From a virus (Duplodnaviria; Caudoviricetes), in the IMG/VR virus record IMGVR_UViG_2684623128_000006, positions 1 to 64,000 of that record: DNA of 64,000 nucleotides. One strand, given 5' to 3'. Both the position numbers and the translations under genes were made by a program. The notes below the pieces were generated by a model that was given only the letters and a program-made list of their open reading frames with translations, was not told where the DNA came from and did no database searches. Each line of letters begins with the position of its first letter. The stretch's first letter is position 1. Shown one piece after another: positions 4,002 to 55,840 of this stretch.

Positions 4002-4680
4002 AAGGGTTTTTTTTGAAACTCACCACGACAATCACCCGTCTGTGGCAATATAATGACGGTGTTACGCGGTCACGCGACACGAACAAACATGCATATCCTC
4101 AATTATTATGCGGTATAGGTCACGTTCTCAAAACCTACCTGCTAGTAACGATATGTTTGCATTATTTTGCATATCTAGACAATCAAAGATCACAGTCTCA
4201 TAATACTCCGCGAACATCAGCTCGGTTGGCGAGAATCCCCTAAACTCTTTCCAAATCAGAGCTATATACGTATTGGCTATCCAGTCAATTGGCTTAAGAG
4301 ATATAGATATGCACTGCACGTTGAATCAATTAATTCCAGTCGAAATACTAGATAAATGTGACCTGTCCCTAGATGTATTTAGCAGCTCGTTCCTCGATGA
4401 CGCGACCGACATTTGCATGATGCATCTTATCCAATCGCATCCGAACGCACTATGCAATTCATCCATTAATCGTGATGATGTATTAAACTTCGTTAGAGAT
4501 CACTTCTCCGCTTAAAAAGCAACACTTATAACGTTCTTCTGTTCGTTTTTTATTTAATTCCGAACACAAAAACGGTATGCTACGCATCAAGGATAAAGGT
4601 AGGGTTTTTCGTTACTCGCATACGCTCAGGGATGGAGTGTAACCTTTATCCTCCAATGTAATTTGGAGCAACCGTTCACC

Positions 4681-5568
4681 ATGATTAATAAAAAAAATAC
4701 TGAAATTAAAGATTTAAAAGCTATTGATATAGAAACACTTAATCAATTACTTGCAAACAAACAAACGGCAGATGCGCGCCTAAAACGTGCCTTGAAGCAC
4801 CGCGCGACTTTTTCCGAACAAATAGATGGCAAGGAAGATAGTGGACTATTCAATGATCGCATCGTAGCTGTAGTAAAACGTGGTAATCCGACCACTCGTT
4901 TACTTGAGTATATTGAGGCCGCGAAATCAGCCAATAAAGAGCTTTTAGAGCGCGCACCTCAATACTTCAACAGCTCATCTAACTCATTTAAAGAGACGAC
5001 CGTAATTGAGAACGTCCGTCGCGTTAACATCACAATTAATAAAGCAGCTAGCAGCCAGAAAGTCACTGGTGCACGTCTAGCCAAAAGACTTGAAGCATAC
5101 CTACGCGACCTCGACCGTAAACTCTCCTACGATCTTCCAGAAGATGAGAAAGAACAGCTCACTAACAATAAAAACACTGCATTGAATGAATTGAAATACT
5201 TCAAAGACAATGCAGACGTTGAGTTTAGAAAGCGCGGTCAAGAACACAATGACATTGTCGCTATTATCCATACCTATGATGGTAACAATGGCGGCAGTTC
5301 TCGCGTAGCTAAAAAGGTTCACGTTAACGCTGGTGGCCTTGTTCTAATTAGGCATCGCTCTTGTAAAGATCACGATGTGCTAATCACAAACAACACCACT
5401 GAGGGACGTTCGATATTCGATGAAGCGAATGCTTTTAAGTCGGTACTGTACCCTAACGCTAATATGTATATAGAAAGCGAAGTTGACGCTATTCGTGAAG
5501 CCAGAAAAGAGCTTAGAAGCAAGAACGAAAGCAAAGCACGTTCGCAGTTCGATGGATTAGTGAACTAA
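4681..5568 (+). CDS. c1: P1 C1-like primary repressor
   Basis: Blocks ENVRRVNITINKAASSQKVTGARL, EFRKR, HVNAGGLV, SIFDE..YPNANMY align with recalled P1 C1; convergent with pacB as in P1; operator at its own promoter (4557-4567). Confidence 0.75.
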   Translation: MINKKNTEIKDLKAIDIETLNQLLANKQTADARLKRALKHRATFSEQIDGKEDSGLFNDRIVAVVKRGNPTTRLLEYIEAAKSANKELLERAPQYFNSSSNSFKETTVIENVRRVNITINKAASSQKVTGARLAKRLEAYLRDLDRKLSYDLPEDEKEQLTNNKNTALNELKYFKDNADVEFRKRGQEHNDIVAIIHTYDGNNGGSSRVAKKVHVNAGGLVLIRHRSCKDHDVLITNNTTEGRSIFDEANAFKSVLYPNANMYIESEVDAIREARKELRSKNESKARSQFDGLVN

Positions 5569-36012: not shown

Positions 36013-36067
36013 CTCAAATTTTCGCATGCGAAAAGTTCTCGCATGCGAAAACTTTTTGGAGACAACA

Positions 36068-36493
36068 ATGATTACCCAAGTGAAATTGCCTACCGTTGAA
36101 GATCTACAGCCCTTACTCGATGAGGCGCTAGAAACAGCGCAAAGCAAAGAAGCATTTATCCAAGCTCAAGTAGATGGCATTTACAAAACACTTAAAGCCA
36201 ATCCGCTCATGTACCGTCACTATGGCGCTTATTGGTGGGCGGTTAAATCGCTCATGGCCAAGCATGGTTATGACCTTGGCAGCGATTCAGAAGTGATCAC
36301 AGAGCAACACTTCAATTTCGAAGACCCTGCGATTTTGTTGTGTGCTGCGTGGGCGTACCAGCAAGAGCAAGTTGATAAAGGCTACTGGCAAGCAAACCTA
36401 CATACCTACTACGTCGATGATGAAGAATTTGAATATTCTATCGAGGACGTAAATCTCGAAGCGTGGAGTGTTAACAGCAAATCGATGCGTTAA
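36068..36493 (+). CDS. ulx: Ulx-like protein (Dar incorporation factor)
   Basis: NPLMYRHYGAYWWAVKSLM matches recalled P1 Ulx; directly follows darB. Confidence 0.78.
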   Translation: MITQVKLPTVEDLQPLLDEALETAQSKEAFIQAQVDGIYKTLKANPLMYRHYGAYWWAVKSLMAKHGYDLGSDSEVITEQHFNFEDPAILLCAAWAYQQEQVDKGYWQANLHTYYVDDEEFEYSIEDVNLEAWSVNSKSMR

Positions 36494-36996
36494 GTTTTCG
36501 CATGCGAAAACTTTTTCTCATATGCCCGTCATTTTTGGCGGGTATTTTTTTGCATGGAATTTGGTAAGAAGTTCTCGCATGCGAAAACTATACGGAATGG
36601 GATGTTTTAAAGTTCTCGCATGCGAAAACTTTTGAGATAGAAAAAATAAACCCCGCCACTGAACAAATGGCGGGGATTGCACGTTGAACAGATAAGCTTT
36701 GATGCAATCAATCCTACCCCTAATAGTTTTGTTGCCGCCTATCTGTAATTTAATGTATATGAAATAATTTTCATATTCAACAGGTTTTTCAATATTTTTT
36801 ATTAAAAACAATGAATTATGCAACTGGGTGCTGTTCCCTTCTTATGCCTGTTGACGCTGCTCTTTGTAACCTAGTTAAGTAATAGAATTGTCAAAAAGTT
36901 TTCGCATGCGAAAACACATGGAATCAATCTCACAATTTATCTGATGTTCTCGCATGCGAAAACTTGTGCAATTGGTTCTGTTTGTTACTTTTTTTC

Positions 36997-37308: not shown

Positions 37309-38082
37309 ATGAGCATTATCATGGCGATTGCCAACCAAAAAGGCGGCGTTGGTAAAACAACTTGTACTTACAACTTTGGCATTAGCATCGCTAGCCAAGG
37401 CAACAAATGTCTATTCCTGGACTTTGACCCACAAAACAACTTAGGCGGCTCAATCGCACCGGAAATGGTCGAGAATCCAGAGTACACATCTGCGAGCTGC
37501 CTACACAACGCTTACAACCTTTTTGAAAATCCAGTAAAGGCTAAACCTTTCGAAGTCAGCGAAAACGTACACGTTATTGGCGGCGATAAGCGCATGGGTA
37601 ACATTACTCAATCACAAATCTTAAACGTGGCTGAGTCTATCGACCTTATCAAAGACGACTACGACTATATCTTTATCGACTGTCCACCAGCGGCGAACGC
37701 GCTACAGCATGCAGCGCTACTTGTGGCCAGCAAGCTACTTATCATTAGCCAAGCACAAAAAATGTCGATCAAAGGCGTTAATGAGCTGGTTAAGACCTCG
37801 CGCCAAATCCGTCGAATGAACCCTGACTTGGAAGTATTAGGCATTGTCCTAAACCTTATCGAAGCCAACATTACAAACGACCAGCGCGAACAGGAAGCGG
37901 AACTTCGTAAAGAGTACGGCAACCTAGTTTTTGAAAACAAACTGATTAAAACAACGCGCGTAAGTGAAGCTCTAAACCAAGGCAAAGCACTGATTGAAAC
38001 CAACCCTAAAGCGGCTGATAAATTCGGCTTTACAGCGGTTTGTGATGAGCTTTGCAAGCGCATGGTAGAGGTGACAGCATGA
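37309..38082 (+). CDS. parA: ParA Walker-type partition ATPase
   Basis: NQKGGVGKTT, DFDPQ, YIFIDCPP. Confidence 0.96.
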   Translation: MSIIMAIANQKGGVGKTTCTYNFGISIASQGNKCLFLDFDPQNNLGGSIAPEMVENPEYTSASCLHNAYNLFENPVKAKPFEVSENVHVIGGDKRMGNITQSQILNVAESIDLIKDDYDYIFIDCPPAANALQHAALLVASKLLIISQAQKMSIKGVNELVKTSRQIRRMNPDLEVLGIVLNLIEANITNDQREQEAELRKEYGNLVFENKLIKTTRVSEALNQGKALIETNPKAADKFGFTAVCDELCKRMVEVTA

Positions 38083-38996
38083 CCAAAAGCTTAAGAGATC
38101 GAATCAAGCTTAGCGACCTAGATAATCTCTTGGATGAATCAGCGGTAGAAATCCGCGATGCAGCGAAAGTGCTGGCTATCCCTAAAGACTCTTTGTATTC
38201 AGTTGAGCAAGTTCGTGAAGAATTTAACGATGAATCACTACTTGAGTTATGCGAAAGCCTAGAAGAAAACGGCCAAATTCAACCTGTCGTTGTTTACCCG
38301 TTCGATGGCAAGGGATACAAAATCCAAGAGGGTGAACGACGTTGGCGCGCCGCTATGTTGAGCGACAAGCTGACTCACGTTGAATGTATTGTCCGTGAAA
38401 AGGGCGATATTTTTGGCCAGCTTATTGAAAACATCCAACGTGAAGATTTAACGGCAATCGAGTTGGGTAAGGCGTTTGACCAAGCTAAGAAAAAGCACAA
38501 TCTTGATAACCGTGGCTTAGCTAAGCGCCTTGGCAAATCAGACGGCTACATTTCGAAATACCTAAATGTGCTTAAAGCCCCTGACTTTGTTTTGGAAGCA
38601 TTCCAAAAAGGGATTATTGGTGATGTAGAGTCCATCAACGAACTACGCAAAGCAACCGTCGATAACTCTGAGCGCGTTCGTGAAGCGCTGGAAAGCGGCG
38701 AGAAGCTAACACGCCAAGATTGTGTAAAACTGCGCACTGGCGAGCTAGATAGCAAGGTGGAAGTTGCACCTCAACCTAGCAAACCAGAGAAAGCAGAAAA
38801 GACCGATAAGACACCAGTAAGCAAAAAGCCTACGGCAAACCAAAAGCCTACCAGCATTTGTGTGATGGTTAATGACCGTCATGGTTTGGTGTTCGCATCT
38901 GGTAAGCATAGCGACAAGCTAACGGTACTGTTTGATGATGGCGAACTTGAGCAAGTGCCAGTTGGTGAAGCTCAATTAGTTGGGTATCGTGTGTAA
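38079..38996 (+). CDS. parB: ParB CTPase/centromere-binding protein
   Basis: GERRWRA, ENIQREDL, HTH LAKRLGKSDGYISKYL. Confidence 0.95.
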   Translation: MTKSLRDRIKLSDLDNLLDESAVEIRDAAKVLAIPKDSLYSVEQVREEFNDESLLELCESLEENGQIQPVVVYPFDGKGYKIQEGERRWRAAMLSDKLTHVECIVREKGDIFGQLIENIQREDLTAIELGKAFDQAKKKHNLDNRGLAKRLGKSDGYISKYLNVLKAPDFVLEAFQKGIIGDVESINELRKATVDNSERVREALESGEKLTRQDCVKLRTGELDSKVEVAPQPSKPEKAEKTDKTPVSKKPTANQKPTSICVMVNDRHGLVFASGKHSDKLTVLFDDGELEQVPVGEAQLVGYRV

Positions 38997-39017
38997 AGTT
39001 CTCGCATGCGAAAACTT

Positions 39018-39442: not shown

Positions 39443-39695
39443 CTATTTTATAGCATGCCTCGAAGCGTTTGCAAGTTCGTCCAGTTGCACACTAGACTCG
39501 AACATAAAGCCTGTTTGTACCCCCTCGTTTTCTAGCTCTTGATTTACACGCCCAAGAATATCAATAAGCGATGCACCGCCGCCGCCAAACATATCCCCGA
39601 GCGCTTGGCCTTGGTGAAGCAGCTCACTATTGATTGCCTCGGCCATTGCCTTAAATGCCAGTGTCATGCGTTTTGCGCTTCGGTTGTTCGCAGCA
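39443..39695 (-). pseudogene. ddrB: 3' remnant of a ddrB-like gene truncated by the IS
   Basis: AANNRSAKRMTLAFKAMAE..GDMFGGG resembles the DdrB C-terminus; expected position after darA-ddrA; frame starts exactly at the IS right end. Confidence 0.65.
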
Positions 39696-39830
39696 TTGAC
39701 ATACTCCCCTAGCTAATTCGCTAGGGGATTCTTAGTTCAACACGCTTTCACTAGATAGCCTCTTTTGAGGCTATCCCCGATCCAGTCGCTCCCTAAGCTA
39801 ACCCCGCCAGTCCAGCGGTTTTTATATTCT
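39676..39830 (-). ncRNA. TnpB omega/reRNA scaffold plus guide (guide about 39676-39695; 5' end approximate)
   Basis: Hairpins downstream of tnpB ending in TCAA at 39696; flanking TGCTGCGAACAACCGAAGCG would form the guide. Confidence 0.7.
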
Positions 39831-40887
39831 TCGCTGCGTTAATATCACGATCATGGTGCGTATTGCATTCTGGACAAGTCCAGTTTCGGATATTAAGCGG
39901 CATTGATTCGTGTACGAATCCACAACAGCTACAACGCTTTGAGCTAGGGAAGAAGCGCTCTATCTCAACGATAGTTCGTCCAGCCCATTCTGCTTTGTAT
40001 TTGAGTTGGCGAACGAACTCACCCCAACTCGCATCAGCGATGTGTTTTGCTAGTTTTGGATTGCGGAGCATGTTCTTCACTTGTAGCGATTCAACACAAA
40101 CAACTTGGTTTTCGTTTATCAGTTTGCGAGACAACTTGTGTAAGTTGTCTAATCGACTATCAGCAATTTTCGCGTGTAGACGGGCTACTTTCTGGCGCAC
40201 CTTAGCGCGATTATTACTGCCTTTCTTTTTCTTGGCGAGTTGACGCTGTAGGTATGCCAGTTTGTTTTGGTAGTGTTTGAAGTGGCGAGGATTATCGACT
40301 TTCTCACCGCTATCTGTGATGAACAGGTTATTTAAACCCAAATCAATACCAACCGTTTTAGCGGTTACAGGCATTGGTTTAGGCTCAAAACGGCATAGCA
40401 TAGACACAAAGTATCGGCCTGTGGTGTCTTTTGAGATTGTGACTGTGGTTGGTTCGCTAGGTAGTTCACGACTCCAACGGATATTAAGTGGCTGCTTGGA
40501 CTTGGCAATGAATAGCTGTCCATCGCGGAACTTAAATGCAGATTTGGTGAACTCAGCAGACTGTTTGTGACGTTTCTTTTTTTCGACAGGGTATTTTGCT
40601 CGACCCTCAAAGAAGTTCTTAAAAGCAGCTTGCTGGTGACGTAGTGATTGTTGCAAAGGCACACAAGAAACATCATTAAGCCAGCTTAACTCCGGATCTT
40701 TCTTAAACTCGGTCAATCGGCTTGATGCTGCGTTGTAGTTCACCTTAATTTTGTCATTACGGTAAGCGTCAATTCTCCAACGTAGGATTCTGTTGTAAAC
40801 AGTTCGCACACAACCGAACGTTCTTGCTAGAAGTTCAGCTTGATCATCAGTTGGATAAAACCGTTGTTTGATTACGATCTCTTTCAT
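39793..40887 (-). CDS. tnpB: TnpB RNA-guided endonuclease
   Basis: N-terminal HTH; RuvC VGIDLG, VCVESL and HDRDINAAKNI; Zn finger CSCC..CPEC; D-E-D triad intact. Confidence 0.97.
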   Translation of the reverse strand: MKEIVIKQRFYPTDDQAELLARTFGCVRTVYNRILRWRIDAYRNDKIKVNYNAASSRLTEFKKDPELSWLNDVSCVPLQQSLRHQQAAFKNFFEGRAKYPVEKKKRHKQSAEFTKSAFKFRDGQLFIAKSKQPLNIRWSRELPSEPTTVTISKDTTGRYFVSMLCRFEPKPMPVTAKTVGIDLGLNNLFITDSGEKVDNPRHFKHYQNKLAYLQRQLAKKKKGSNNRAKVRQKVARLHAKIADSRLDNLHKLSRKLINENQVVCVESLQVKNMLRNPKLAKHIADASWGEFVRQLKYKAEWAGRTIVEIERFFPSSKRCSCCGFVHESMPLNIRNWTCPECNTHHDRDINAAKNIKTAGLAGLA

Positions 40888-40955
40888 GTCTTACAAACGC
40901 TTTTGACTTAACTCATTGAGTTAGCCCCGCAATAAACGGGGCTTTCTCTCCTGAT

Positions 40956-41225
40956 TTAACTTGTCTGGAAGTCCATTTTTTCTAGGGCAAGTTCAAACCC
41001 CGAGCAAAACAGATATTGAGCGTCCAGAATTGAATCAACGCGAAGATCACCACCACAAAGCAGCCAATCTTGAAAATGCTGTTCTGGCGAATCGTTCCAA
41101 TCGACAGGTTGTAAGGCGTTGTAGACCTGACAAAGAAGCTCTACAGGCGCGTTTAGATCTTGGGAGAGGTAGTCTTGCGCAGCTTGAAGTGCGGCGCGCA
41201 TGTTGATTGTAGAAGTGCCAATCAT
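40956..41225 (-). CDS. Small acidic hypothetical protein under C4 antisense control
   Basis: RBS (CAGGA) overlaps the C4 target CTTAACAGG. Confidence 0.65.
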   Translation of the reverse strand: MIGTSTINMRAALQAAQDYLSQDLNAPVELLCQVYNALQPVDWNDSPEQHFQDWLLCGGDLRVDSILDAQYLFCSGFELALEKMDFQTS

Positions 41226-41278
41226 GATTTCAGTCCTGTTAAGTTATTGTTTAACTCACCAAAACCGAGGCTAACCAG

Positions 41279-41358
41279 TGGTGGTGAGCTGATTCGGGAT
41301 TAGCCTTACCGCTTAACAGGAAACGGCGCACCGAAGTGCTCCCAAAACAGCCCACCAT
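41279..41358 (-). ncRNA. C4-type antisense RNA (P1/P7 C4, P4 CI-like)
   Basis: ATGGTGGGCTG...GCACTTCGGTGC...CCTGTTAAG...AGGCTAA...CAGCTCACCACCA cloverleaf; loops complementary to targets at 41416-41438 and 41235-41274. Confidence 0.85.
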
Positions 41359-41382
41359 AATTAGGATGTGCAGATTTCACGC

Positions 41383-41499
41383 AATAAAAAACCAGCAGGG
41401 TGCTGGCGACTTGCGCCTGTTAAGTTTCGAGAGGCTAATCTCGACACTGGATTTTGCCAGTGCCCAAATAGATTAACTCCAAAAAAATAGGTTTTGCAA
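41383..41499 (-). promoter_or_regulatory. C4 upstream target (a1/b1) leader with terminator and promoter
   Basis: TTGCAA..TAATCT promoter; CACTGGCAAAATCCAGTG hairpin; TTAGCCT and CTTAACAGG targets; CCAGCAccCTGCTGGTTTTTT terminator. Confidence 0.75.
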
Positions 41500-41900
41500 G
41501 TCGTTTTTTAATATAATTTTTTATATGCAATCTGGCAAGTGTAAAAGCGTTGATTTTAATGCTGTGTTCGGAATTTATAGTGAGCAAGCTTTGTCGTATA
41601 ATCCCTAATCACCACAATAGAATTAACTAGAAAGGGCAGCGCTCCTCTCCTCCCTCTTTCGGGAGGGGTATCCACGCTGAAACATTTAGGTGGCGAGTTT
41701 TCGCATGCGAGAACTTTTGGGATAGGGAAAAGGATTAAAGGCTCTTAAGCAATGCGAAAAGCGCCTTGGCGTAGTTATGACGTTCGCTGGCTGCTAGTGC
41801 AAGGTTTAAAGATTGCTTGTAGTAATAGTCTGCTCGGATTTTAGTGAAAACATTCATCGTTTTTTCTCAAGTTCTCTGAAAAGTTTTCGCATGCGAAAAC

Positions 41901-42605
41901 TTAAGCGGCCAGTTTGTCAGGATTGTGCTCGAACCATTCAATCGCTTTTTGCTTGATGCTATCTAGCTCCAAGCCCTCTGAGTGAACGTCTCGCATTACA
42001 TCAACAAACAACGATGGCTTGGCTGTATTAAACTCCCCTGCAAGGAATCTCGCAACCAGTTCGCTTTGTTCAACTGGACGTTCGCCATTGTCGCGCTCAT
42101 TCTGCTCAATGTGCTTAGTGATGATCTTGATAGCCTTGCTACGGTCAGCGCGCGACCAGCTACCAAAACCACCATTTTTCTTGGCTGAGCCCGCATCGTT
42201 TTTCCAGTAGTCCAAACCGCGCGCAACATGCCCCTTGTAGCCAAACTGGAAGTTTTCGCCATCCTTGTAAACAACGTAGTTATCCCCCTTTTCAACCATT
42301 TGGTAGTTAGGGAAAAACGCCATTTCGTATTCGTACCAGTTAGGCAGAAGTAGCACTTCATTGAGCTTTTCAATCTTATCGGAGCGGCCTAACTTGGAAA
42401 ATTCTTCTACCGATATTGGCTCATCCGAACTTGATACCGGTTCCTGCTCAACCTTTTGGTTAGCGCCTGTCAGTTTATTAAGAATTTCCACCAGCTCACG
42501 GTTCTTTTTGATGCGTTCACCAATCGATAGCTGGCCACTCTTAAGCTCTTTCAACAAACCCGCAGCATCGCGGTTGAGCGTCATTTTTTCTCTTAAGCTT
42601 AACAC
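41901..42605 (-). CDS. ddrA: DdrA-like protein with an internal insertion
   Basis: C-terminal ELVARFLAGEF..LDSIKQKAIEWF resembles recalled P1 DdrA; follows darA. Confidence 0.6.
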   Translation of the reverse strand: MLSLREKMTLNRDAAGLLKELKSGQLSIGERIKKNRELVEILNKLTGANQKVEQEPVSSSDEPISVEEFSKLGRSDKIEKLNEVLLLPNWYEYEMAFFPNYQMVEKGDNYVVYKDGENFQFGYKGHVARGLDYWKNDAGSAKKNGGFGSWSRADRSKAIKIITKHIEQNERDNGERPVEQSELVARFLAGEFNTAKPSLFVDVMRDVHSEGLELDSIKQKAIEWFEHNPDKLAA

Positions 42606-42652: not shown

Positions 42653-45600
42653 TTAGATTTGCGCTTGGATCATGCTGGTGATGTTGCTTAGAGCAGCATC
42701 CATCAACGCTTCGTTCTCTGCTATTTGGTCGTTAGCTTCGAAGTGGGCGTAAGCCTGTTCTAGTGCGGTTTGGAACTCATCAACCAATTCCGGCGTAGGT
42801 TCACCAGTGAAATCTCGGATTTCCTTTAGTTTCTCTACATGTTCCATTTCTTCGTTATTGCCCTCTGTTTCAGATTGAGGCGCCTCACTACTTAGATTGA
42901 ACGCTTTCACTAATAGCGCTTCCATTTCCGCTGTATCGTCAAATTCACCGATCAAGTCGTTGCCTTGGTATAGCGCGAACTTGTACTCGCCATCTTTAGC
43001 GATCGGATAAATGTCAGCGTGGCTTTCATTTAACCATGAACGGGCGATTAGCGGAGCGTACACGTTCGCTGGCACTGAGCCATTTACTGAGTGGATACCT
43101 GCCGCAACACTTGGTTGTACCAATGCGCCTATTTCGTTGTAGTAGGTATCCGCAGATTGCCAGTCCTTAATCGTCTCAAGCTGAGCTTTCGCTTTTTCGC
43201 TTAAGTCGGTCGCTAGAATGTCGAATAGAACGTCTAGGCTGTAAGTGAGTCCGTCCTCATCTTTCGCATTAATCGACTTCACTCGGCCTGTTGGGAAAGT
43301 CACTTCCTGCTTACCAAGTTTTAGCTCTAGGTTGGTAAAGGCTTCTAGCTGCTCAAGCGCTTTCGCTTCTTCTTCATCTAGGCTTTCACGGAATGAGGTA
43401 ACGTCTAATACGTCATCCTCTGCCTGTTCGCCTTGCTGGTGCATTTCAGTTAGAGACGCGAGCTCTACCACTTTGCGCTCTTTACCAAAATCAAAGTCCA
43501 CGGTTAGGCGGCCACCAAAGAAATTGCGATCGTGGTAATCGGTCATCGTGTCGCTGTTGTTGTAGTCGTATTGGCCTACATAAGCGTTAACGAACTCGAT
43601 CAGCTGATCTACTGCTTCGGTATAACGGCTCATACCGTGTGGCGCTGGCGAGTTAGGGTTATCAATCTCGAACTGTAGGTAAGCTGGATTGTAGAGCATG
43701 ACGTTTCTTGGCAAGTCAGTCAGCGTTAGGTCTAGTGTGCCGTAGCGAGGCTTGCGTACTGAGATTTTAACGTCATTACTGATCTTGCCAGCTTTCTTAA
43801 GCTGAGCGATAAAGGCGCGGATTCGCTTAGCGATTTCACCCGTATCTCGAATGCCCTCGCTCTCATAGATTGAGCCAAATGAATATTGAGTTGGGTCTAG
43901 TGCGAGAAGTTGTTTTTCTTCCTCGGATGCACCCTTGCTCACTTCATCTGCTGTGTCAGATTCTACGGCGTTCTTAGCACCCAATAGCTCAAGCAGTTTG
44001 TTCGCACCGTCAACCGTTAGGTAGCTGCGAGAATTGGTGTTAGCGATAAAGCGTAGCTCTTTACCCTTGTTCGACTTCGCAGAGAAGAAACTGTAGCCAA
44101 ATGTATTTTCCATTTGGTTCTCTTGTTCTTCGGTTAGCGCAATGCCGTTAATCTTGCCGTCATCGTCCACCTTGGCCAGTAGCTTGTCGGCGTTCTCGCG
44201 TAGTGTTGGGCGCGAGTGAAGCGAACCCGAGCCGTTAATGGCCAACGTTGAATACAATGATTCAAAGCCGTTGATTGTGGTGAACATAGCCGGACTGACA
44301 GGCTCTAGTGGTGCGCTGTATTCCGTCTCTGCAATTTGCTCAAGCGTTTTGCCGTCCTTAAGCATGTTAAAGATTGCAATAGTGCTTTCTTTCACTGCTT
44401 GGTCGTTTAGTTGAGTCGCTTTTTGCTGCGCTGCTGCGCCCTCTAGGCCAGTTTCTAGCACCTTGCCTGTGTACGTATCGATAACGCTAAAATCAGATTG
44501 GCCAATAGTGCCAACTGGTGCGTAGCGTTTCTCGCGTGTCGCCTTGAATTGACCTTTATGGTTCAAGTCAGGCAACGCAGCAAGGCTAGGGAAGCCACGG
44601 CTTTCGTATTCCGCTTCGATAGCTTTTGTGTACCACAATGGCATGACCGAGTTATGGATAGCGCGCACCATCTGTTCATTGTCGATCTGCTCATCGTTAT
44701 CCAAGTATCTAAAACCATGAATTGCCAGGATGTCTTGGTTGGTAACACTTGCCATTGCATAGTGCTGAGCAAAGAGCTCATCTGAACTTAGTTCGGATAG
44801 GTCAGGGTAGATACCGTCATCAATCGCCTTAATGAAGCGCTCAACTTTTTGGTAGTCCTCGCCTTGGTCTGCCATTGCTGGAATGACGGTTTCACCTTTT
44901 GCCTTGGTGTAAGCTACGTCTCCCTCATGGTAAACCGTAGTCGCGCTAAACGCTTTTTCTACGTCATCCAGTGCTAACGCTTCGCCGTTCTCAAACTTCT
45001 CGTATAGGTCGCCACGTAGCGCGCGTAGGTCGAACATTTTCGCCGTTGCACTAAAGAATCCGTCACGGTAGTTCAAGATAGCTTGCAGTAGGTCAGCGCG
45101 TTTCGCACGGCGGTTAAATGGAATGCGATGAGCCGTTAGGAAATCAGTGATCTCTTTGCGGTTCTTAAATTGCGCTTCCAGTGACGCTAGGGTTTCACCT
45201 TGTAGTGATTCCACTAGGTGCGCTTGTTCTGAAATACGCTTAGCTTGGTCATCCACTTTCTCGCCACGTTTTAGTGTTTTACCAGTACCTAGCGTTAGGT
45301 CAGCTAGCATAACAAGACGTTTGCGATCGCTTGGGTTTACTGACTGCATATCCTTAAGTTGGGATAGGGCTGCTTCTTGGAAGCGCATGCGGCCTTGCGT
45401 GTGTTCTGCTTGGCGCTGTAATTCAGCATCGCTTTGAACCAGCATTAGGTCTTCGGCAATCTCTTGAATCATGTCCGGCGTCACAAGGTCAATCGATGCG
45501 CTCCATAGCTTGTACGCGTTTGGATTTTCCTTGCGGTTCTTCATTTCTGGTTGCTGGCGTAGCTGCTTAGCGAACGCTGCTTTGAAGCCCACTTGTTTTA

Positions 45601-47446
45601 GGGTATCGAGCGTAGACTGAGGAATTTCATCAACGCCTTTGTCCTCAACCCATTGGTCTAGCGCTTCGGTTGCGATGCGCTCCGCTTCTTCTAGGTCGCC
45701 CTCAACCATGCCAAATAGCGGCTCTAGGTCAAAGTTACTTACTAATTCTGGTGGCAGTTTTTGGTCATAAGCGATCGCACCGTGGCGAATGCCATTACCA
45801 GCGTCAGCGAATTGCTCTTTAGCCGATTCTGGATCGAGGTACTTAACCACTTGATGTTGTGGCGGCGTCGTACCCAAGCCATAAGGGCGTAGACGTAGGC
45901 CATACCAGAATAGGTTATCCGTGGTTTCGTCTTTGTCTTGGTCGTTCGCGTTTGGCTCGTCGTTCTCAATTGATTGTGGTTCTTCGTTGCTGTCATCGGT
46001 ATCTTGAAGCAACTTAGATTCGCGATCGTAGTCAGCCAGAATAAGTGATTTAGCAGCTTCCCAACCTTGTAGATCGTCGCCACCAGCAAGCGGTGAACCC
46101 TCGCCGTAAGTGACAGCCAAGGTTTGGTTATCGCGCGCGTGGATCATGTACTGGCCAAAGCTATCATCGTCGTTCGCGTCAGGCGATTCGAAGTAGACAA
46201 ACGGCTCGCTATCTTCGCCTTTATCCATCTTCCAGCCCTTAGCAATGGTCTTGCGACCAATAAGAGCCAATAGCCATTCTTTGCGCTCGATATTTGCTTT
46301 TCGTTCCCGTTCTTTGTCTGACAACTGAGGAAAATCGTTTTCAATTGAATCACGGATGTATTCTTTAGCCTCGGCAAGCTCTGATACCGTCATAGCACCT
46401 TTATCGAGGTCATAAATCACATCATTGATATACGACTCTGAATAAGTGCTAGGAACGTTTTGATTTGCTGCACCTGCAAACTCTAATGAGTCTTTAAACT
46501 CTTGGCTTAGCTGTTTAACAAAGGCATCAAGATCGCCATTGAAGGCACGGTTAATGATGAAGTCGCGTTTCTCTTGCTTAGTCCATGAAGCGTCCCATTG
46601 CTCGATCACTTGAGACGAGCTACCACCAGCGTTTACATTTTTCGTTGCTGTATTTGCTGCTGGCTTGATAGCAGCAAGCTGTTTGCGTAGTTCTTCTTGG
46701 ATTTCGTTCTGCGTAGCAATCTGAGTTTCCAAGCGCTTCTCTTTCTTGGCCAGCTCATCGAGCTTTTGTTCCAAGTCGGTAGCTTCTTCGCCTAGTTGCG
46801 CAGCTTGTTCATCAAGTTCTTGTGCCTTTTGTTGCGCTTCTTCCAATGCTTTCTTGTCAGCGTCTTTCTTGGCCTTAGCAGCGACAAATTTCTCGCTGTT
46901 GTTTTCAAGCAACTGCGCTAGCTTGTTGGTCACTTCCTTAAGGGATAAATCCATGTTGCCCTTTGGCGCGACTACGTGAGTAATATCGCGCGAGTTCATT
47001 AGAAAGCGGAACGCGATTAACGTGTCATCTGGATTGATTTTTAGCGGATCGTTATCCGGCGCATGGAACGCAATAGAAATGCTCTGGCCATCTGAAAACG
47101 GGATTTTCACCATTTGGACAGCAACCGCACCAGACTTGCGCGGTTTGCCTACTTCAACGGCTTCTACCGATAAAGTAGGGGTTTTACGCTCCAAGTGCTT
47201 ACCGAATTGCTGAGCACGAAATTCAAGCCTTGAGGCTTTCGATTTGAACGCCTCTAGCATCATTTGTGGCACAGGTTTGCACTGATACAAGTAGGTGTTC
47301 TCCAAATCCTCAAGTGACAATGCTTCTAGGATTTGATCGGCGTTTTTACCTTGCAGCACCGCTTCAATCTGCTCCGGCGAGAGTTTCTTGGCCAGATGGT
47401 CGATGCGATCCACAATCTTGATTTGATTTTGACTGGTAAACATCAT
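42653..47446 (-). CDS. darA: Enlarged DarA-like antirestriction/polyvalent head protein
   Basis: DarA N-domain (FSDGQSISIAFHAP..DITHVVAP), DarA C-like YGLRLRPYGLG..RHGAIAY, LPD-like NNSDTMTDYHDRNFFG; 1597 aa. Confidence 0.82.
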   Translation of the reverse strand: MMFTSQNQIKIVDRIDHLAKKLSPEQIEAVLQGKNADQILEALSLEDLENTYLYQCKPVPQMMLEAFKSKASRLEFRAQQFGKHLERKTPTLSVEAVEVGKPRKSGAVAVQMVKIPFSDGQSISIAFHAPDNDPLKINPDDTLIAFRFLMNSRDITHVVAPKGNMDLSLKEVTNKLAQLLENNSEKFVAAKAKKDADKKALEEAQQKAQELDEQAAQLGEEATDLEQKLDELAKKEKRLETQIATQNEIQEELRKQLAAIKPAANTATKNVNAGGSSSQVIEQWDASWTKQEKRDFIINRAFNGDLDAFVKQLSQEFKDSLEFAGAANQNVPSTYSESYINDVIYDLDKGAMTVSELAEAKEYIRDSIENDFPQLSDKERERKANIERKEWLLALIGRKTIAKGWKMDKGEDSEPFVYFESPDANDDDSFGQYMIHARDNQTLAVTYGEGSPLAGGDDLQGWEAAKSLILADYDRESKLLQDTDDSNEEPQSIENDEPNANDQDKDETTDNLFWYGLRLRPYGLGTTPPQHQVVKYLDPESAKEQFADAGNGIRHGAIAYDQKLPPELVSNFDLEPLFGMVEGDLEEAERIATEALDQWVEDKGVDEIPQSTLDTLKQVGFKAAFAKQLRQQPEMKNRKENPNAYKLWSASIDLVTPDMIQEIAEDLMLVQSDAELQRQAEHTQGRMRFQEAALSQLKDMQSVNPSDRKRLVMLADLTLGTGKTLKRGEKVDDQAKRISEQAHLVESLQGETLASLEAQFKNRKEITDFLTAHRIPFNRRAKRADLLQAILNYRDGFFSATAKMFDLRALRGDLYEKFENGEALALDDVEKAFSATTVYHEGDVAYTKAKGETVIPAMADQGEDYQKVERFIKAIDDGIYPDLSELSSDELFAQHYAMASVTNQDILAIHGFRYLDNDEQIDNEQMVRAIHNSVMPLWYTKAIEAEYESRGFPSLAALPDLNHKGQFKATREKRYAPVGTIGQSDFSVIDTYTGKVLETGLEGAAAQQKATQLNDQAVKESTIAIFNMLKDGKTLEQIAETEYSAPLEPVSPAMFTTINGFESLYSTLAINGSGSLHSRPTLRENADKLLAKVDDDGKINGIALTEEQENQMENTFGYSFFSAKSNKGKELRFIANTNSRSYLTVDGANKLLELLGAKNAVESDTADEVSKGASEEEKQLLALDPTQYSFGSIYESEGIRDTGEIAKRIRAFIAQLKKAGKISNDVKISVRKPRYGTLDLTLTDLPRNVMLYNPAYLQFEIDNPNSPAPHGMSRYTEAVDQLIEFVNAYVGQYDYNNSDTMTDYHDRNFFGGRLTVDFDFGKERKVVELASLTEMHQQGEQAEDDVLDVTSFRESLDEEEAKALEQLEAFTNLELKLGKQEVTFPTGRVKSINAKDEDGLTYSLDVLFDILATDLSEKAKAQLETIKDWQSADTYYNEIGALVQPSVAAGIHSVNGSVPANVYAPLIARSWLNESHADIYPIAKDGEYKFALYQGNDLIGEFDDTAEMEALLVKAFNLSSEAPQSETEGNNEEMEHVEKLKEIRDFTGEPTPELVDEFQTALEQAYAHFEANDQIAENEALMDAALSNITSMIQAQI

Positions 47447-48075
47447 GACTTTGCCGCCTCTAATTGTGCTTCAAGTTCTTTGGTTTCTTGCTTCTCTTGC
47501 TCTAATGCAGTTTCGAGATCTGCTATGCGGCGTTGTTCTTCTTCCAACTTAGTGCGAACGCTATCCCGAGCGGCTAGGGCATTGGTGTAATTGGACTGAG
47601 CGACTTGTTCAGCCGCTTTGGCTTCTTCAAGTCGCTTAGCAATAGAACGTGTAGCTGGTTGAATGTCTGAGGTGTCTTTAACGGCTTTAGCCGCTTTACG
47701 TGCAACTTGCTTGTCAAACTTGCTTTGGTTGCGCTTCATTAGGCGAACCATTTCACGCGCAAGCTCGCGCTCGTTCTTCACGCTAGGGATAGGCTGTTTA
47801 GTGCTGTTGAGTGTCATTTGGAAAATATCACCCTCATCACCAATAAACAGCGTCATTGACTGGCCATTATCAAAGAATAACTTGGCGCGTTTAACTGTCT
47901 CGCCGTCTCGTCTCGTTCTCTTGTTCGAGGCTTCTACGTCTGTAACAGTCGCACCAGCTTGTTTTAACGCAGTGATCAGACTCTTAAGGCCGCGTTCGGT
48001 CACGTTGTCAAAATCGACCACCACATAGTTATGTGACTGGTCTAGTGCAAACTTACTGTTGTTACGCAATTTCAA
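47443..48075 (-). CDS. hdf: Hdf-like protein
   Basis: VDFDNVTERGLKSL..FDNGQSMTL..GDIFQMTLN; lies between lydB and darA. Confidence 0.8.
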   Translation of the reverse strand: MKLRNNSKFALDQSHNYVVVDFDNVTERGLKSLITALKQAGATVTDVEASNKRTRRDGETVKRAKLFFDNGQSMTLFIGDEGDIFQMTLNSTKQPIPSVKNERELAREMVRLMKRNQSKFDKQVARKAAKAVKDTSDIQPATRSIAKRLEEAKAAEQVAQSNYTNALAARDSVRTKLEEEQRRIADLETALEQEKQETKELEAQLEAAKS

Positions 48076-48795: not shown

Positions 48796-49196
48796 TAAAT
48801 CCCCCTTTAGTATATTACCTAGCGAGTGTATTCGGAATGGTGGCTTTTGCTCAATAGACGGGCGTTACTTACTTTTGAATGGGTATTAAATAGGGCTGTT
48901 TTGCGGAAAAAAGTTAGATTTCAAGAGCCTATATAAAAAAGAAGCCTCTCACCCAAAAGGCTGGTGAGAGGCTAATCCAAGCGTTTTGTTGCGCGGCAAC
49001 GCATACAAAACTTCCAATGAGGATAGTCGAGTCGAATCGATATTTGACGAGGAAGATTATATAAATATTGGTTTTCGCATCAATATGCGCCCATGTTTTC
49101 GCATGCGAAAACTTTAGGGGATGCCATGTTTTAAAGTTCTCGCATGCGAAAACTTTTGCAAAAAAAGGGACAGCATCGTGTCCCTTTGGTTGATGG

Positions 49197-55725: not shown

Positions 55726-55840
55726 GTTTTTCGCCTTATTGGTGTAAAAGTTTTCGCATGCGAAAACTATACGGGATGATGTTTCTTAAAGTTCTCGCAT
55801 GCGAAAACATCCGTGTCTTTCTTGCTCCGTGCGAAAACTT

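What the first reader, a model, noticed from the sequence alone, without database searches (positions are those of the whole stretch)
39676..41693. TnpB placed behind a phage C4 antisense-RNA switch: candidate domesticated RNA-guided nuclease
Seen: between IS200/IS605-type ends there is no tnpA. Instead, co-oriented on the minus strand, lie a C1-type operator (41564), a promoter, a1/b1 targets with a terminator, a complete C4-like RNA (41279-41358), a2/b2 targets overlapping the RBS of an 89-aa ORF, and then a catalytically intact tnpB with an intact right-end RNA. Known: in P1/P7 this C4 architecture silences icd-ant in lysogens and permits transient expression on entry, and TnpB uses right-end RNA plus flanking DNA as its guide. 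Inference: nuclease expression may be wired into the phage immunity circuit. Caveat: a hairpin at 40924-40943 between the ORF and tnpB may limit read-through, and a chance nested insertion is possible.
Basis: partly seen in the sequence, partly recalled or inferred. Interest (0 to 1): 0.85.

Follow-up and report, generated by a model that had tools for sequence, protein, structure and literature searches.

The report
Transposon carrying a phage antisense-RNA switch
A small jumping gene on Vibrio phage-plasmids carries a phage-type antisense-RNA switch in front of an unknown small gene and its RNA-guided nuclease gene, so the nuclease may be kept quiet except just after the element enters a new cell.

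Summary
The sequence features are real, except the "C1 operator". Window 39696-41689 (minus strand) is a 1994-bp IS200/IS605-type element without tnpA. From left end to right end it holds:
- promoter-like sites
- an isrK-type leader (Rfam 67.4 bits) with a1/b1 sites and a terminator
- a C4 RNA (58.7 bits)
- a2/b2 sites over the ribosome-binding site of an orphan 89-aa ORF
- an intact tnpB and a conserved right-end guide-RNA scaffold

This is not a chance nested insertion in place, and it is not a domesticated nuclease. The whole block lies at five different sites in Vibrio phage-plasmid DNA, four of them 3' of TCAT. The C4 loops and their four target sites change together between copies, giving three specificity types.

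The phage-immunity link is not supported. The plasmid backbone has no C4 of its own, no P1 C1 homologue was found, and the proposed operator scores below background. None of 83 related tnpB loci shares the cassette.

Best reading: a trans-mobilised transposon captured an immI-type RNA switch that gates ORF89 and, probably by polarity, tnpB. The gating of tnpB is inferred, not shown. This is a new variant of known kinds. No paper in the library I searched links C4 or isrK with TnpB.

The parts
39696..41689 (-). Whole mobile unit (1994 bp): a non-autonomous IS200/IS605-type element with an immI-type RNA cassette, ORF89 and tnpB
   Evidence: The same block, 94-97% identical, has different flanks in L001, L002, L009 and L102.
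41647..41689 (-). Left end. The terminus is at 41689. The subterminal hairpin CCCCTCCC/GAAAGA/GGGAGG(A)G lies at 41668-41647, 21 nt from the end.
   Evidence: Base 41690 is C here, where the other four copies have the last T of TCAT.
41560..41600 (-).
   Evidence: Two unrelated sequence types among the 4 copies. No operator support.
41471..41538 (-). Promoter-like sites: TTGCCA-17-TATATT (41538-41510). By eye, also a proximal TTGCAA (41499-41494) placed like the promoter of L090.
   Evidence: (10 of 12 matches). RNA-library contig ends at 41501 and 41452 are compatible (weak evidence).
41386..41463 (-). isrK-type leader RNA with a1 (41440-41432), b1 (41424-41416) and an intrinsic terminator (41407-41386)
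   Evidence: Rfam RF01394, 67.4 bits; terminator scan; a1/b1 change together with the C4 loops.
41277..41362 (-). C4-type antisense RNA, with loop b' at 41320-41312 and single-stranded a' at 41306-41298
   Evidence: Rfam RF01695, 58.7 bits; compensatory hairpin-1 variants; covariation with targets.
41235..41276 (-). a2 (41276-41268) and b2 (41243-41235). With the next base (41234), b2 spells the AGGA ribosome-binding site of ORF89.
   Evidence: 89.5% of cells are paired, and 0 of 500 shuffles reach that.
40956..41225 (-). ORF89: an orphan acidic protein (pI 4.05), function unknown
   Evidence: The frame is kept in 4 copies, including a saturated recombinant patch. dN/dS is 0.18-0.27 in the five informative pairs of six. 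Only 6 relatives in 5.8 billion proteins, the named ones from Vibrio. No family match.
40924..40942 (-). Conserved hairpin between ORF89 and tnpB, part of a longer fold over 40880-40960. It has no U tract.
   Evidence: dG -22.4, z -3.94. The spacer has 1 variable position in 68 across 4 copies.
39793..40887 (-). tnpB, 364 aa, with RuvC D/E/D and zinc-finger motifs present
   Evidence: dN/dS 0.08-0.22.
39696..39931 (-). Right-end guide-RNA (omega RNA) scaffold, with the right-end hairpin (39727-39706) and the terminus ...GTCAA
   Evidence: Conserved with 11 relatives; 13 of 40 pairs compensatory. 18 of 83 relatives' loci match the first 52-70 nt after the stop codon.
39676..39695 (-). The 20 nt next to the right end, the expected guide portion of the omega RNA
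   Evidence: Sibling plasmids carry TCAT plus this sequence as an unoccupied site: W01 exact, W02 and W03 one difference, G001 two.

Best explanation
Window 39696-41689 is a non-autonomous IS200/IS605-family transposon. It has tnpB and guide RNA but no tnpA. In its history it captured a phage immI-type RNA switch of the isrK/C4 kind together with an orphan 89-aa gene, and it now moves with them as one unit among Vibrio phage-plasmids.

Shown:
- the anatomy of the element
- its mobility as a unit, with a TCAT target
- a C4 RNA whose two recognition sites co-evolve with both target pairs
- intact tnpB and ORF89, both under purifying selection

Inferred, by analogy with P1 c4-icd-ant and Gifsy-1 isrK:
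- Transcripts start at the cassette promoter.
- Most stop at the isrK terminator. Read-through RNA yields C4.
- C4 pairs with a2/b2 and blocks translation of ORF89.
- Untranslated ORF89 RNA is prematurely terminated, so little tnpB mRNA (and guide RNA made from it) is produced.
- The short isrK-type RNA, which carries a1/b1, can titrate C4.

The net effect would be that ORF89 and TnpB are held low in established cells. They would be made in a burst when the element arrives in a cell that has no matching C4. Transposition itself would need a TnpA supplied in trans. A candidate is a tnpA-tnpB IS on sibling plasmids, whose right-end hairpin and terminus are nearly identical to this element's.
For: Unit mobility:
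- The same ~2-kb block has different flanks in the window, L001, L002, L009 and L102.
- The left flank is TCAT in 4 of 5 copies. The unoccupied sites read TCAT|flank.

Switch:
- Rfam isrK and C4 hits. They recur in the four full copies scanned (window, L001, L002, L009); the partial fifth copy, L102, was not scanned.
- The geometry is close to annotated P1. The gap from b2 to the ATG is 10 nt here and 11 nt in P1; a2 to b2 is 33 against 29.
- a'/a2 and b'/b2 are 89.5% paired; a1/a' and b1/b' are 94.4% paired. There are 8 and 9 pairs with changes on both sides. 0 of 500 shuffles reach the percentage paired or the covariation score, and slid controls give 14-53%.
- Cognate duplex energies are -19.0 to -22.8 kcal/mol, against -5.7 to -16.0 for non-cognate pairs.

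Link to tnpB:
- No promoter-like site at the scan threshold lies on the minus strand between 41206 (early in ORF89) and the tnpB start (40887).
- No canonical terminator lies there either.
- The spacer is nearly invariant.
- In RNA-library contigs one contig runs from 41171 to 40401, across the ORF89-tnpB junction, at unchanged depth. One run has a gap exactly over the promoter region, 41453-41530.

Genes alive: dN/dS is 0.08-0.22 for tnpB and 0.18-0.27 for ORF89. The RuvC motifs align.

Trans helper: sibling plasmids W02 and W03 carry a 1.8-kb tnpA-tnpB IS. Its right-end terminal 36 nt match ours at 34 and 33 positions, including ...TGTCAA. Its left-end hairpin is similar.
Against: - No experiment and no stranded read data show that tnpB is co-transcribed with ORF89 or responds to C4. 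Contigs cannot show single transcripts, and they may include DNA carry-over. The raw-read run that I laid had no reads.
- A structured hairpin lies between ORF89 and tnpB and could stop read-through.
- Promoter-like sites exist inside tnpB (40799-40210) and could make guide RNA independently. Depth over the tnpB 3' part is about twice that of the 5' part in 2 of 3 runs.
- None of 83 related tnpB loci has the cassette. TnpB elements clearly do not need such control.
- The element is rare: 5 full or partial copies and a few decayed ones.
- The proposed helper IS has different left flanks (not TCAT) in its two copies. No tnpA element with this exact left end was found.
Confidence: 0.6

Rival explanations
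1. Cargo reading. The isrK/C4 switch controls only ORF89. ORF89 would be a small acidic protein meant to be made briefly on entry into a new cell, for example an anti-repressor-like or anti-restriction-like factor. tnpB with its guide RNA would merely be the vehicle, expressed independently at a low level.
For: - b2 overlaps the ORF89 ribosome-binding site, not that of tnpB.
- There is a 68-nt structured spacer and no translational coupling.
- In native loci the same switch precedes antirepressor genes.
- ORF89 is under purifying selection and has a divergent allele patch.
- Its pI is 4.05 and its charge about -10.
- Depth over the tnpB 3' part is higher than over ORF89 in 2 of 3 runs.
Against: - No promoter-like site was found between early ORF89 and the tnpB start.
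- The spacer is almost invariant.
- In P1 the same switch silences the downstream gene through polarity (recalled from the literature).
- ORF89 matches no family. Its model is of low confidence, pLDDT 55.7, so no function can be assigned.
Confidence: 0.28
2. Passenger relic. A tnpB-only IS landed downstream of an immI-type cassette, as is seen today in L090. A new left end was later recruited upstream, and the cassette is now carried along without any role for the element.
For: - L090 shows exactly such an adjacency, with the IS boundary between the cassette and tnpB.
- The tnpB relatives lack the cassette.
- A hairpin at 40942-40924 lies where relatives have their left-end hairpin.
- A decayed copy exists, L005.
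Against: - A relic should decay. Instead, three specificity types keep a1, a', a2 and b1, b', b2 mutually complementary.
- ORF89 keeps its frame and has a low dN/dS.
- All five copies keep the outer left end.
Confidence: 0.08
3. TnpB is a domesticated nuclease whose expression is tied to the phage-plasmid's C1/C4 immunity circuit through a C1 operator.
For: The architecture mirrors P1 Oc4-P51-a1b1-c4-a2b2-icd-ant. The host replicon has P1-like dar genes: a DdrA-like PHROG hit and DdrB similarity.
Against: - The element is mobile, with five sites.
- The backbone without the element has no C4.
- No C1 homologue was found in 5 records; that search had no positive control.
- The operator is not supported and is absent from 2 of 4 copies.
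- There are no other C4 targets in the window.
Confidence: 0.04

Closest known systems
Phage P1/P7 immI region (Oc4, P51a/b, a1/b1, c4, a2/b2, icd, ant1/2)
   Same: Same order and near-identical spacing of the a1/b1, C4 RNA, a2/b2 and first-ORF start. C4 matches the same Rfam model: P1 68.8 bits, here 58.7. Specificity variants with matched changes recall P1/P7 heteroimmunity (recalled).
   Different: The leader is the isrK type (RF01394) with a terminator, not P1's c4-a1b1 family RF03163. There is no C1 operator. ORF89 is unrelated to Icd: no alignment at E up to 100. There is no ant gene; tnpB is in its place, separated by 68 nt rather than overlapping. The whole thing lies inside a transposon.
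isrK-C4-antirepressor loci of Gifsy-1 (isrK-orf45-anrP), phiV10/TL-2011b/Tyrion and Vibrio phage 10N.286.54.F9_PE001
   Same: About 72% DNA identity over leader plus C4. Both Rfam families are present in the same order. A short terminated RNA and a read-through mRNA are described for Gifsy-1 (PMC4825925; abstract and sections 12 and 21 read). The a-site alleles are shared: the window has that of L090, and L001/L009 have that of L092.
   Different: Those loci are fixed parts of prophages and control antirepressors (Bro-N, YoqD-like, AnrP). Here the module is transposon cargo and is followed by an orphan ORF and tnpB.
tnpB-only IS200/IS605 elements (IS1341-like) and ISDra2 TnpB
   Same: TnpB domains; ISDra2 TnpB chains hit at E 2e-72. 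The guide-RNA scaffold is conserved. Subterminal hairpins, insertion 3' of a short motif without duplication, and a right end in ...TCAA as in relatives L007 and L070. The hairpin-to-end distances (21 and 10 nt) resemble IS608 as I recall it.
   Different: About 750 bp of regulatory cargo plus an extra gene lie between the left end and tnpB. Relatives have only 60-300 nt there, and 0 of 83 share any of it. The terminal right-end hairpin resembles that of an unrelated local tnpA-tnpB IS rather than that of its closest tnpB relatives.
Antisense and 5'-UTR control of IS200 tnpA (art200)
   Same: RNA-level repression of a transposon gene in the IS200/IS605 family (recalled; PMC5435999 seen only in a search listing).
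   Different: That control is a cis-encoded antisense RNA and a hairpin acting on tnpA. Here it is a captured phage two-RNA switch, acting in trans through loop-target kissing sites, upstream of tnpB.
TldR, TnpB-derived nuclease-dead repressors (domesticated TnpB)
   Same: A TnpB-family protein in a non-canonical gene context (recalled).
   Different: Here the RuvC motifs are present, both transposon ends are intact, and the element moves. It is not domesticated.

Membership tests
IS200/IS605-family transposon (non-autonomous, tnpB-only type) | TnpB (OrfB_IS605 with zinc-ribbon/TNB domain) | tested here: met
   Pfam E 3e-29, 4e-26 and 1e-14. NCBIfam guided_TnpB 371 bits against a cut-off of 100.
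IS200/IS605-family transposon (non-autonomous, tnpB-only type) | Subterminal hairpins at both ends instead of terminal inverted repeats | tested here: met
   Left-end hairpin 41668-41647 and right-end hairpin 39727-39706, both with an 8-bp stem and a 6-nt loop of the form CCCCT...AGGGG.
IS200/IS605-family transposon (non-autonomous, tnpB-only type) | Insertion 3' of a short conserved motif, no target duplication, several insertion sites | tested here: met
   Five sites, with a TCAT left flank in 4 of 5. The window copy has a 1173-bp deletion next to the left end. Unoccupied sites read TCAT|flank.
IS200/IS605-family transposon (non-autonomous, tnpB-only type) | Y1 transposase TnpA in the element | tested here: not met
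   0 PF01797 matches in the 83-kb record, hence non-autonomous. A candidate helper IS lies on sibling plasmids.
IS200/IS605-family transposon (non-autonomous, tnpB-only type) | Actual excision or transposition by TnpA | not testable with these tools
   Inferred only, from the different insertion sites.
immI-type C4 antisense switch (P1/P7, isrK-type variant) | C4 RNA sequence and structure | tested here: met
   RF01695, 58.7 bits against 45. Compensatory hairpin-1 variants.
immI-type C4 antisense switch (P1/P7, isrK-type variant) | C4 sites a' and b' complementary to a2/b2 over the ribosome-binding site of the next ORF, and to a1/b1 upstream | tested here: met
   9 of 9 pairs at each site in the window. 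Covariation across 7 loci.
immI-type C4 antisense switch (P1/P7, isrK-type variant) | Controlled genes are icd-like and antirepressor genes | tested here: not met
   ORF89 against P1 Icd gives no alignment. ORF89 has no Pfam, PHROG, NCBIfam or PADLOC family. The next gene is tnpB.
immI-type C4 antisense switch (P1/P7, isrK-type variant) | Promoter under a C1 operator (P1 Oc4/Op51) | tested here: not met
   Operator matrix 7.4 or less; unique 20-mer; no C1 homologue in 5 records, without a positive control.
immI-type C4 antisense switch (P1/P7, isrK-type variant) | C4 processed from the leader transcript, and repression of downstream genes in vivo | not testable with these tools
   The contig-level RNA data are uninformative for an 86-nt RNA.
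Domesticated TnpB (TldR-like) | Loss of RuvC catalytic residues and of the transposon ends; a fixed genomic position | tested here: not met
   D/E/D motifs present; both ends intact; five positions.

The most novel reading that the evidence does not exclude
The C4 specificity types may act as 'immunity groups' for an RNA-guided homing nuclease carried by competing phage-plasmids.

Each copy's guide matches, next to a TCAT motif, the unoccupied allele on sibling plasmids of the same replicon group (shown). The proposed sequence of events is:
- A plasmid enters a cell that holds a sibling plasmid.
- If no matching C4 is present, a burst of TnpB (and ORF89) follows.
- TnpB cuts the sibling's empty site. 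This drives copy-in of the transposon or loss of the rival plasmid.
- A resident element of the same C4 type would veto this in trans.

This would explain why the element's C4 loops and targets diversify in step, as with P1/P7 heteroimmunity.
Probability: 0.18. Interest if true: 0.85.

Novelty: new variant of a known kind. Interest (0 to 1): 0.66.

Why it matters
TnpB is the ancestor of Cas12 and is one of the most abundant prokaryotic genes, yet little is known about how its expression is controlled. Here a transposon has taken over a complete phage 'entry-versus-residence' RNA switch and keeps it working.

If the switch gates tnpB, it would be a natural example of an RNA-guided nuclease that senses whether a copy of its own kind is already present. 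That would mean copy-number or self-recognition control acting in trans, with exchangeable specificities.

The finding also shows that immI-type modules are not confined to phage immunity regions. And it offers a compact, programmable RNA switch already coupled to a small nuclease.

Tried and rejected
Function of ORF89:
- Pfam, PHROGs (best E 0.039), NCBIfam and PADLOC gave nothing.
- The protein atlas gave scores of 0.78 or less, below the lead level.
- The AlphaFold model from 4 near-identical sequences had mean pLDDT 55.7. It is too poor for a fold search, so I ran none.
- No similarity to P1 Icd or to L090 ORF76 (E 0.29).

A second, independent C4-tnpB transposon:
- L090 (a V. alfacsensis plasmid) has isrK-C4-ORF76-ORF51 followed by an unrelated tnpB.
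- Comparison with pVP157-3 shows that the IS there is a separate insertion downstream of the cassette.
- I therefore count it as adjacency only, not as conservation.

Conservation among TnpB relatives:
- 154 relatives were found and 80 kept.
- I scanned only 40 of the 80 with Rfam: 0 had C4 or isrK.
- All 83 relatives' loci were checked by blastn with six parts of the element: 0 hits, except for the right end.

An autonomous element with the same left end: an exact 27-mer search found only further copies of this element, in IMG/VR and in one metagenome contig.

C1 repressor: the P1 C1 protein found nothing in 5 records. The tool warns that without a positive control this shows little.

Expression:
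- The raw-read RNA run X21 had no reads on the stretch, so it is no test.
- Contig runs X3, X4 and X10 cover the element at word depth 9-20, against 276-390 for a neighbouring contig. They cannot separate RNA from DNA carry-over, nor show single transcripts.

Literature:
- 'C4 antisense RNA' with TnpB: 0 papers.
- isrK with TnpB: 1 paper, incidental, seen as a listing only.
- TnpB with phage-plasmid: 8 papers held, 7 listed; none is on this topic by title or abstract start.
- Supplements are closed and subscription journals are not covered, so 'not in print' holds only for this library.

Full report
WHAT THE WINDOW IS

The 3.7 kb around the finding is 100% identical to a 128-kb Vibrio alginolyticus plasmid, NZ_CP013486.1. 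The source record is classed as a provirus of 83 kb. The neighbouring genes resemble P1 dar genes: a DdrA-like PHROG hit for 41901-42605, and a DdrB match of 39522-39691 to P1 and P1-like plasmids. A ParA/ParB pair lies at 37309-38996. The replicon is therefore a phage-plasmid.

THE OBSERVATION

Reading the minus strand and running the family scans gives this order:
- Left end at 41689, with a hairpin at 41668-41647.
- A promoter-like TTGCCA-17-TATATT at 41538-41510.
- An isrK-type leader, RF01394, 67.4 bits, 41463-41386. It carries a1, b1 and a terminator.
- A C4 RNA, RF01695, 58.7 bits, 41362-41277.
- a2 at 41276-41268, and b2 at 41243-41235. With the next base, b2 spells the AGGA ribosome-binding site.
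- ORF89 at 41225-40956.
- A hairpin at 40942-40924 without a U tract.
- tnpB at 40887-39793. Its RuvC D, E and D motifs align with the best PDB hit, an AI-designed TnpB-type nuclease (E 7e-79). ISDra2 TnpB chains follow at E 2e-72.
- A right-end RNA scaffold shared with relatives, with 13 of 40 predicted pairs compensatory.
- The right-end hairpin at 39727-39706 and the terminus at 39696.

No Y1 transposase is present in the record. The spacing of the RNA elements is almost that of the annotated P1 immI region. Only the 'C1-type operator' fails.

IT IS ONE MOBILE UNIT

- The block 39696-41689 recurs at 94-97% identity with unrelated flanks. It is found in two other Vibrio phage-plasmids (L001 and L002), in an IMG/VR contig (L009) and in a metagenome contig (L102, cut inside tnpB).
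- Placed on the window's backbone, L001 sits between about 16501 and 17006, and L002 sits exactly between 47446 and 47447. L009 and L102 have flanks that are absent from the window.
- Four of the five left flanks end in TCAT. The right end always ends in ...GTCAA. There is no target duplication.
- Sibling plasmids without the element at the window's site have an intact 481-aa DdrB-like gene that reads ...TCAT|TGCTGC... at the insertion point. The window copy has also lost 1173 bp of that gene next to the left end.
- A decayed copy, with part of C4, part of ORF89 and the right end, lies on a V. parahaemolyticus plasmid (L005).

THE SWITCH IS MAINTAINED BY SELECTION

- The alignment of four copies shows three specificity types. 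a1, a' and a2 change together, as do b1, b' and b2. C4 hairpin 1 is replaced by a compensatory variant.
- I added three native loci: L090, phiV10 and Vibrio phage PE001. For a'/a2 with b'/b2, 89.5% of cells are paired and 8 pairs changed on both sides. For a1/a' with b1/b', 94.4% are paired and 9 pairs changed on both sides.
- 0 of 500 shuffles reach the percentage paired or the covariation score, and slid registers give 14-53%.
- Cognate a+b duplex energies are -19.0 to -22.8 kcal/mol. Non-cognate pairs give -5.7 to -16.0.
- Some a-site alleles are shared with phage-borne loci. This points to exchange of specificity cassettes by recombination.
- ORF89 keeps its frame through a saturated recombinant patch in L002, and its dN/dS is 0.18-0.27 in the five informative pairs. 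For tnpB the value is 0.08-0.22.

WHERE THE PARTS CAME FROM

- The leader plus C4 is about 72% identical to loci in phiV10, TL-2011b, Tyrion and others. It is 77% identical over part of the leader to a Vibrio phage locus. In the two loci I looked at (phiV10 and the Vibrio phage), it precedes an antirepressor gene.
- tnpB and its RNA scaffold are 82-83% identical to tnpB-only elements on Photobacterium and V. gigantis plasmids. Those lack the cassette.
- Of 80 further relatives, at 63-74% protein identity, I scanned 40 with Rfam: 0 hits.
- None of the 83 relatives' loci matches the left end, promoter, leader, C4, ORF89 or spacer by blastn.
- ORF89 has 6 relatives in 5.8 billion proteins, the named ones from Vibrio. 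It occurs in 4 plasmid records and in no phage record.
- The terminal 36 nt of the right end are 34 of 36 identical to the right end of a 1.8-kb tnpA-tnpB IS on sibling plasmids W02 and W03. That IS also has a similar left-end hairpin. It is my candidate for the transposase supplied in trans; this is inference.
- The element is thus a mosaic.

NOT PART OF THE PHAGE'S IMMUNITY

- Each of four records with the element has exactly one C4, the one inside the element. The sibling plasmid without the element (142 kb) has none.
- No P1 C1 homologue was found in 5 records; that search had no positive control.
- C4 has no further a/b target pair in the window.
- P1's own leader belongs to another Rfam family, c4-a1b1.

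HOW IT PROBABLY WORKS

For Gifsy-1, a short terminated IsrK RNA and a read-through mRNA are documented. There the short RNA acts in trans on the long one and switches on translation of the first ORF and, by coupling, the antirepressor. A processed stable RNA downstream of IsrK (STnc1160) was also detected (PMC4825925; abstract and sections 12 and 21). For P1, I recall from the literature that C4 is cut out of the leader, binds a2/b2, blocks icd translation, and thereby prevents ant transcription by premature termination.

Transferred to this element:
- C4 would occlude the ORF89 ribosome-binding site.
- The untranslated RNA would terminate before tnpB.
- The isrK-type RNA would act as a decoy for C4.

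Evidence for a link to tnpB:
- No promoter-like site on the minus strand between 41206 and the tnpB start, and no canonical terminator there.
- A near-invariant spacer.
- RNA-library contigs that run across the ORF89-tnpB junction at constant depth, with a gap over the promoter in one run.

All of this is circumstantial. The hairpin and internal promoter-like sites in tnpB leave room for independent expression.

A FURTHER OBSERVATION

The 20 nt next to each right end, the expected guide, match the unoccupied allele of sibling plasmids directly 3' of TCAT.
- The window's guide matches W01 exactly, W02 and W03 with one difference, and G001 with two.
- The window itself holds the empty site of the L002 copy at 47443-47466.

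This is what TnpB biology predicts for transposon retention and homing (recalled). Together with the diversifying C4 types, it prompts the bolder reading given under the novel case.

VERDICT

The anatomy is confirmed except for the operator. It is a new variant of two known kinds, an IS200/IS605 element and an immI-type switch. I found no paper linking them (this library only, supplements closed).

Noticed in passing
window 36018-36963 (7 sites), 38998-39015, 41697-41714, 41883-41900, 49095-49153 (2 sites), 55750-55808 (2 sites): An 18-bp palindrome, GTT(T/C)TCGCATGCGA(A/G)AAC, occurs at 14 sites where 0 are expected. Seven sites cluster upstream of parA, and one lies 8 nt outside the element's left end. 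It looks like parS-type or operator sites of the plasmid. A highly expressed RNA-library contig also carries a copy.
   Followed up: partly
window 41690 / locus L003 2558-3733: The window copy is flanked on its left-end side by a 1173-bp deletion. The deletion removes almost the whole 481-aa DdrB-like gene, leaving about 5 codons at the start and 74-84 codons at the end. It also removes the TCAT motif. The mechanism is unknown.
   Followed up: partly
window 47443-47466 (+): This is the unoccupied target of the L002 copy: TCAT followed by a 20 of 20 match to L002's right flank. The TCAT overlaps the start codon, on the opposite strand, of the 1597-aa gene 42653-47446. The L102 copy also sits against a start codon.
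   Followed up: yes
L103 139-1947 (NZ_CP014093.1) and L104 (NZ_CP046807.1): A 1.8-kb IS200/IS605 element with divergent tnpA and a 392-aa tnpB lies on sibling plasmids. Its right-end hairpin and terminus are nearly identical to those of the element studied, although its tnpB is unrelated.
   Followed up: partly
L090 3004-5257 (NZ_CP140106.1, V. alfacsensis): An isrK-C4 cassette controls two small ORFs (76 and 51 aa) instead of an antirepressor. A co-oriented but unrelated tnpB IS is inserted about 180 nt downstream, inside a 21-bp inverted repeat. A tandem repeat of its right-end region lies at 4910-5190.
   Followed up: partly
L005 3001-3457 (pFORC14, V. parahaemolyticus): A decayed copy of the element, with part of C4, part of ORF89 and the right end but no tnpB, lies next to a ParDE toxin-antitoxin pair. 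An extra inverted copy of the right-end terminus is at 2754-2790.
   Followed up: no
L002 about 4640-4710 (corresponds to window 41051-40983): The C-terminal third of ORF89 in the V. diabolicus copy is a highly divergent patch: synonymous sites are saturated and dN is 0.48. Its borders are sharp and the frame is kept. This implies that a distant ORF89 allele exists somewhere and recombines in.
   Followed up: partly
L092 1047-2317 (Vibrio phage 10N.286.54.F9_PE001): A three-gene PD-T4-9 defence system is annotated directly upstream of that phage's isrK-C4-antirepressor locus.
   Followed up: no
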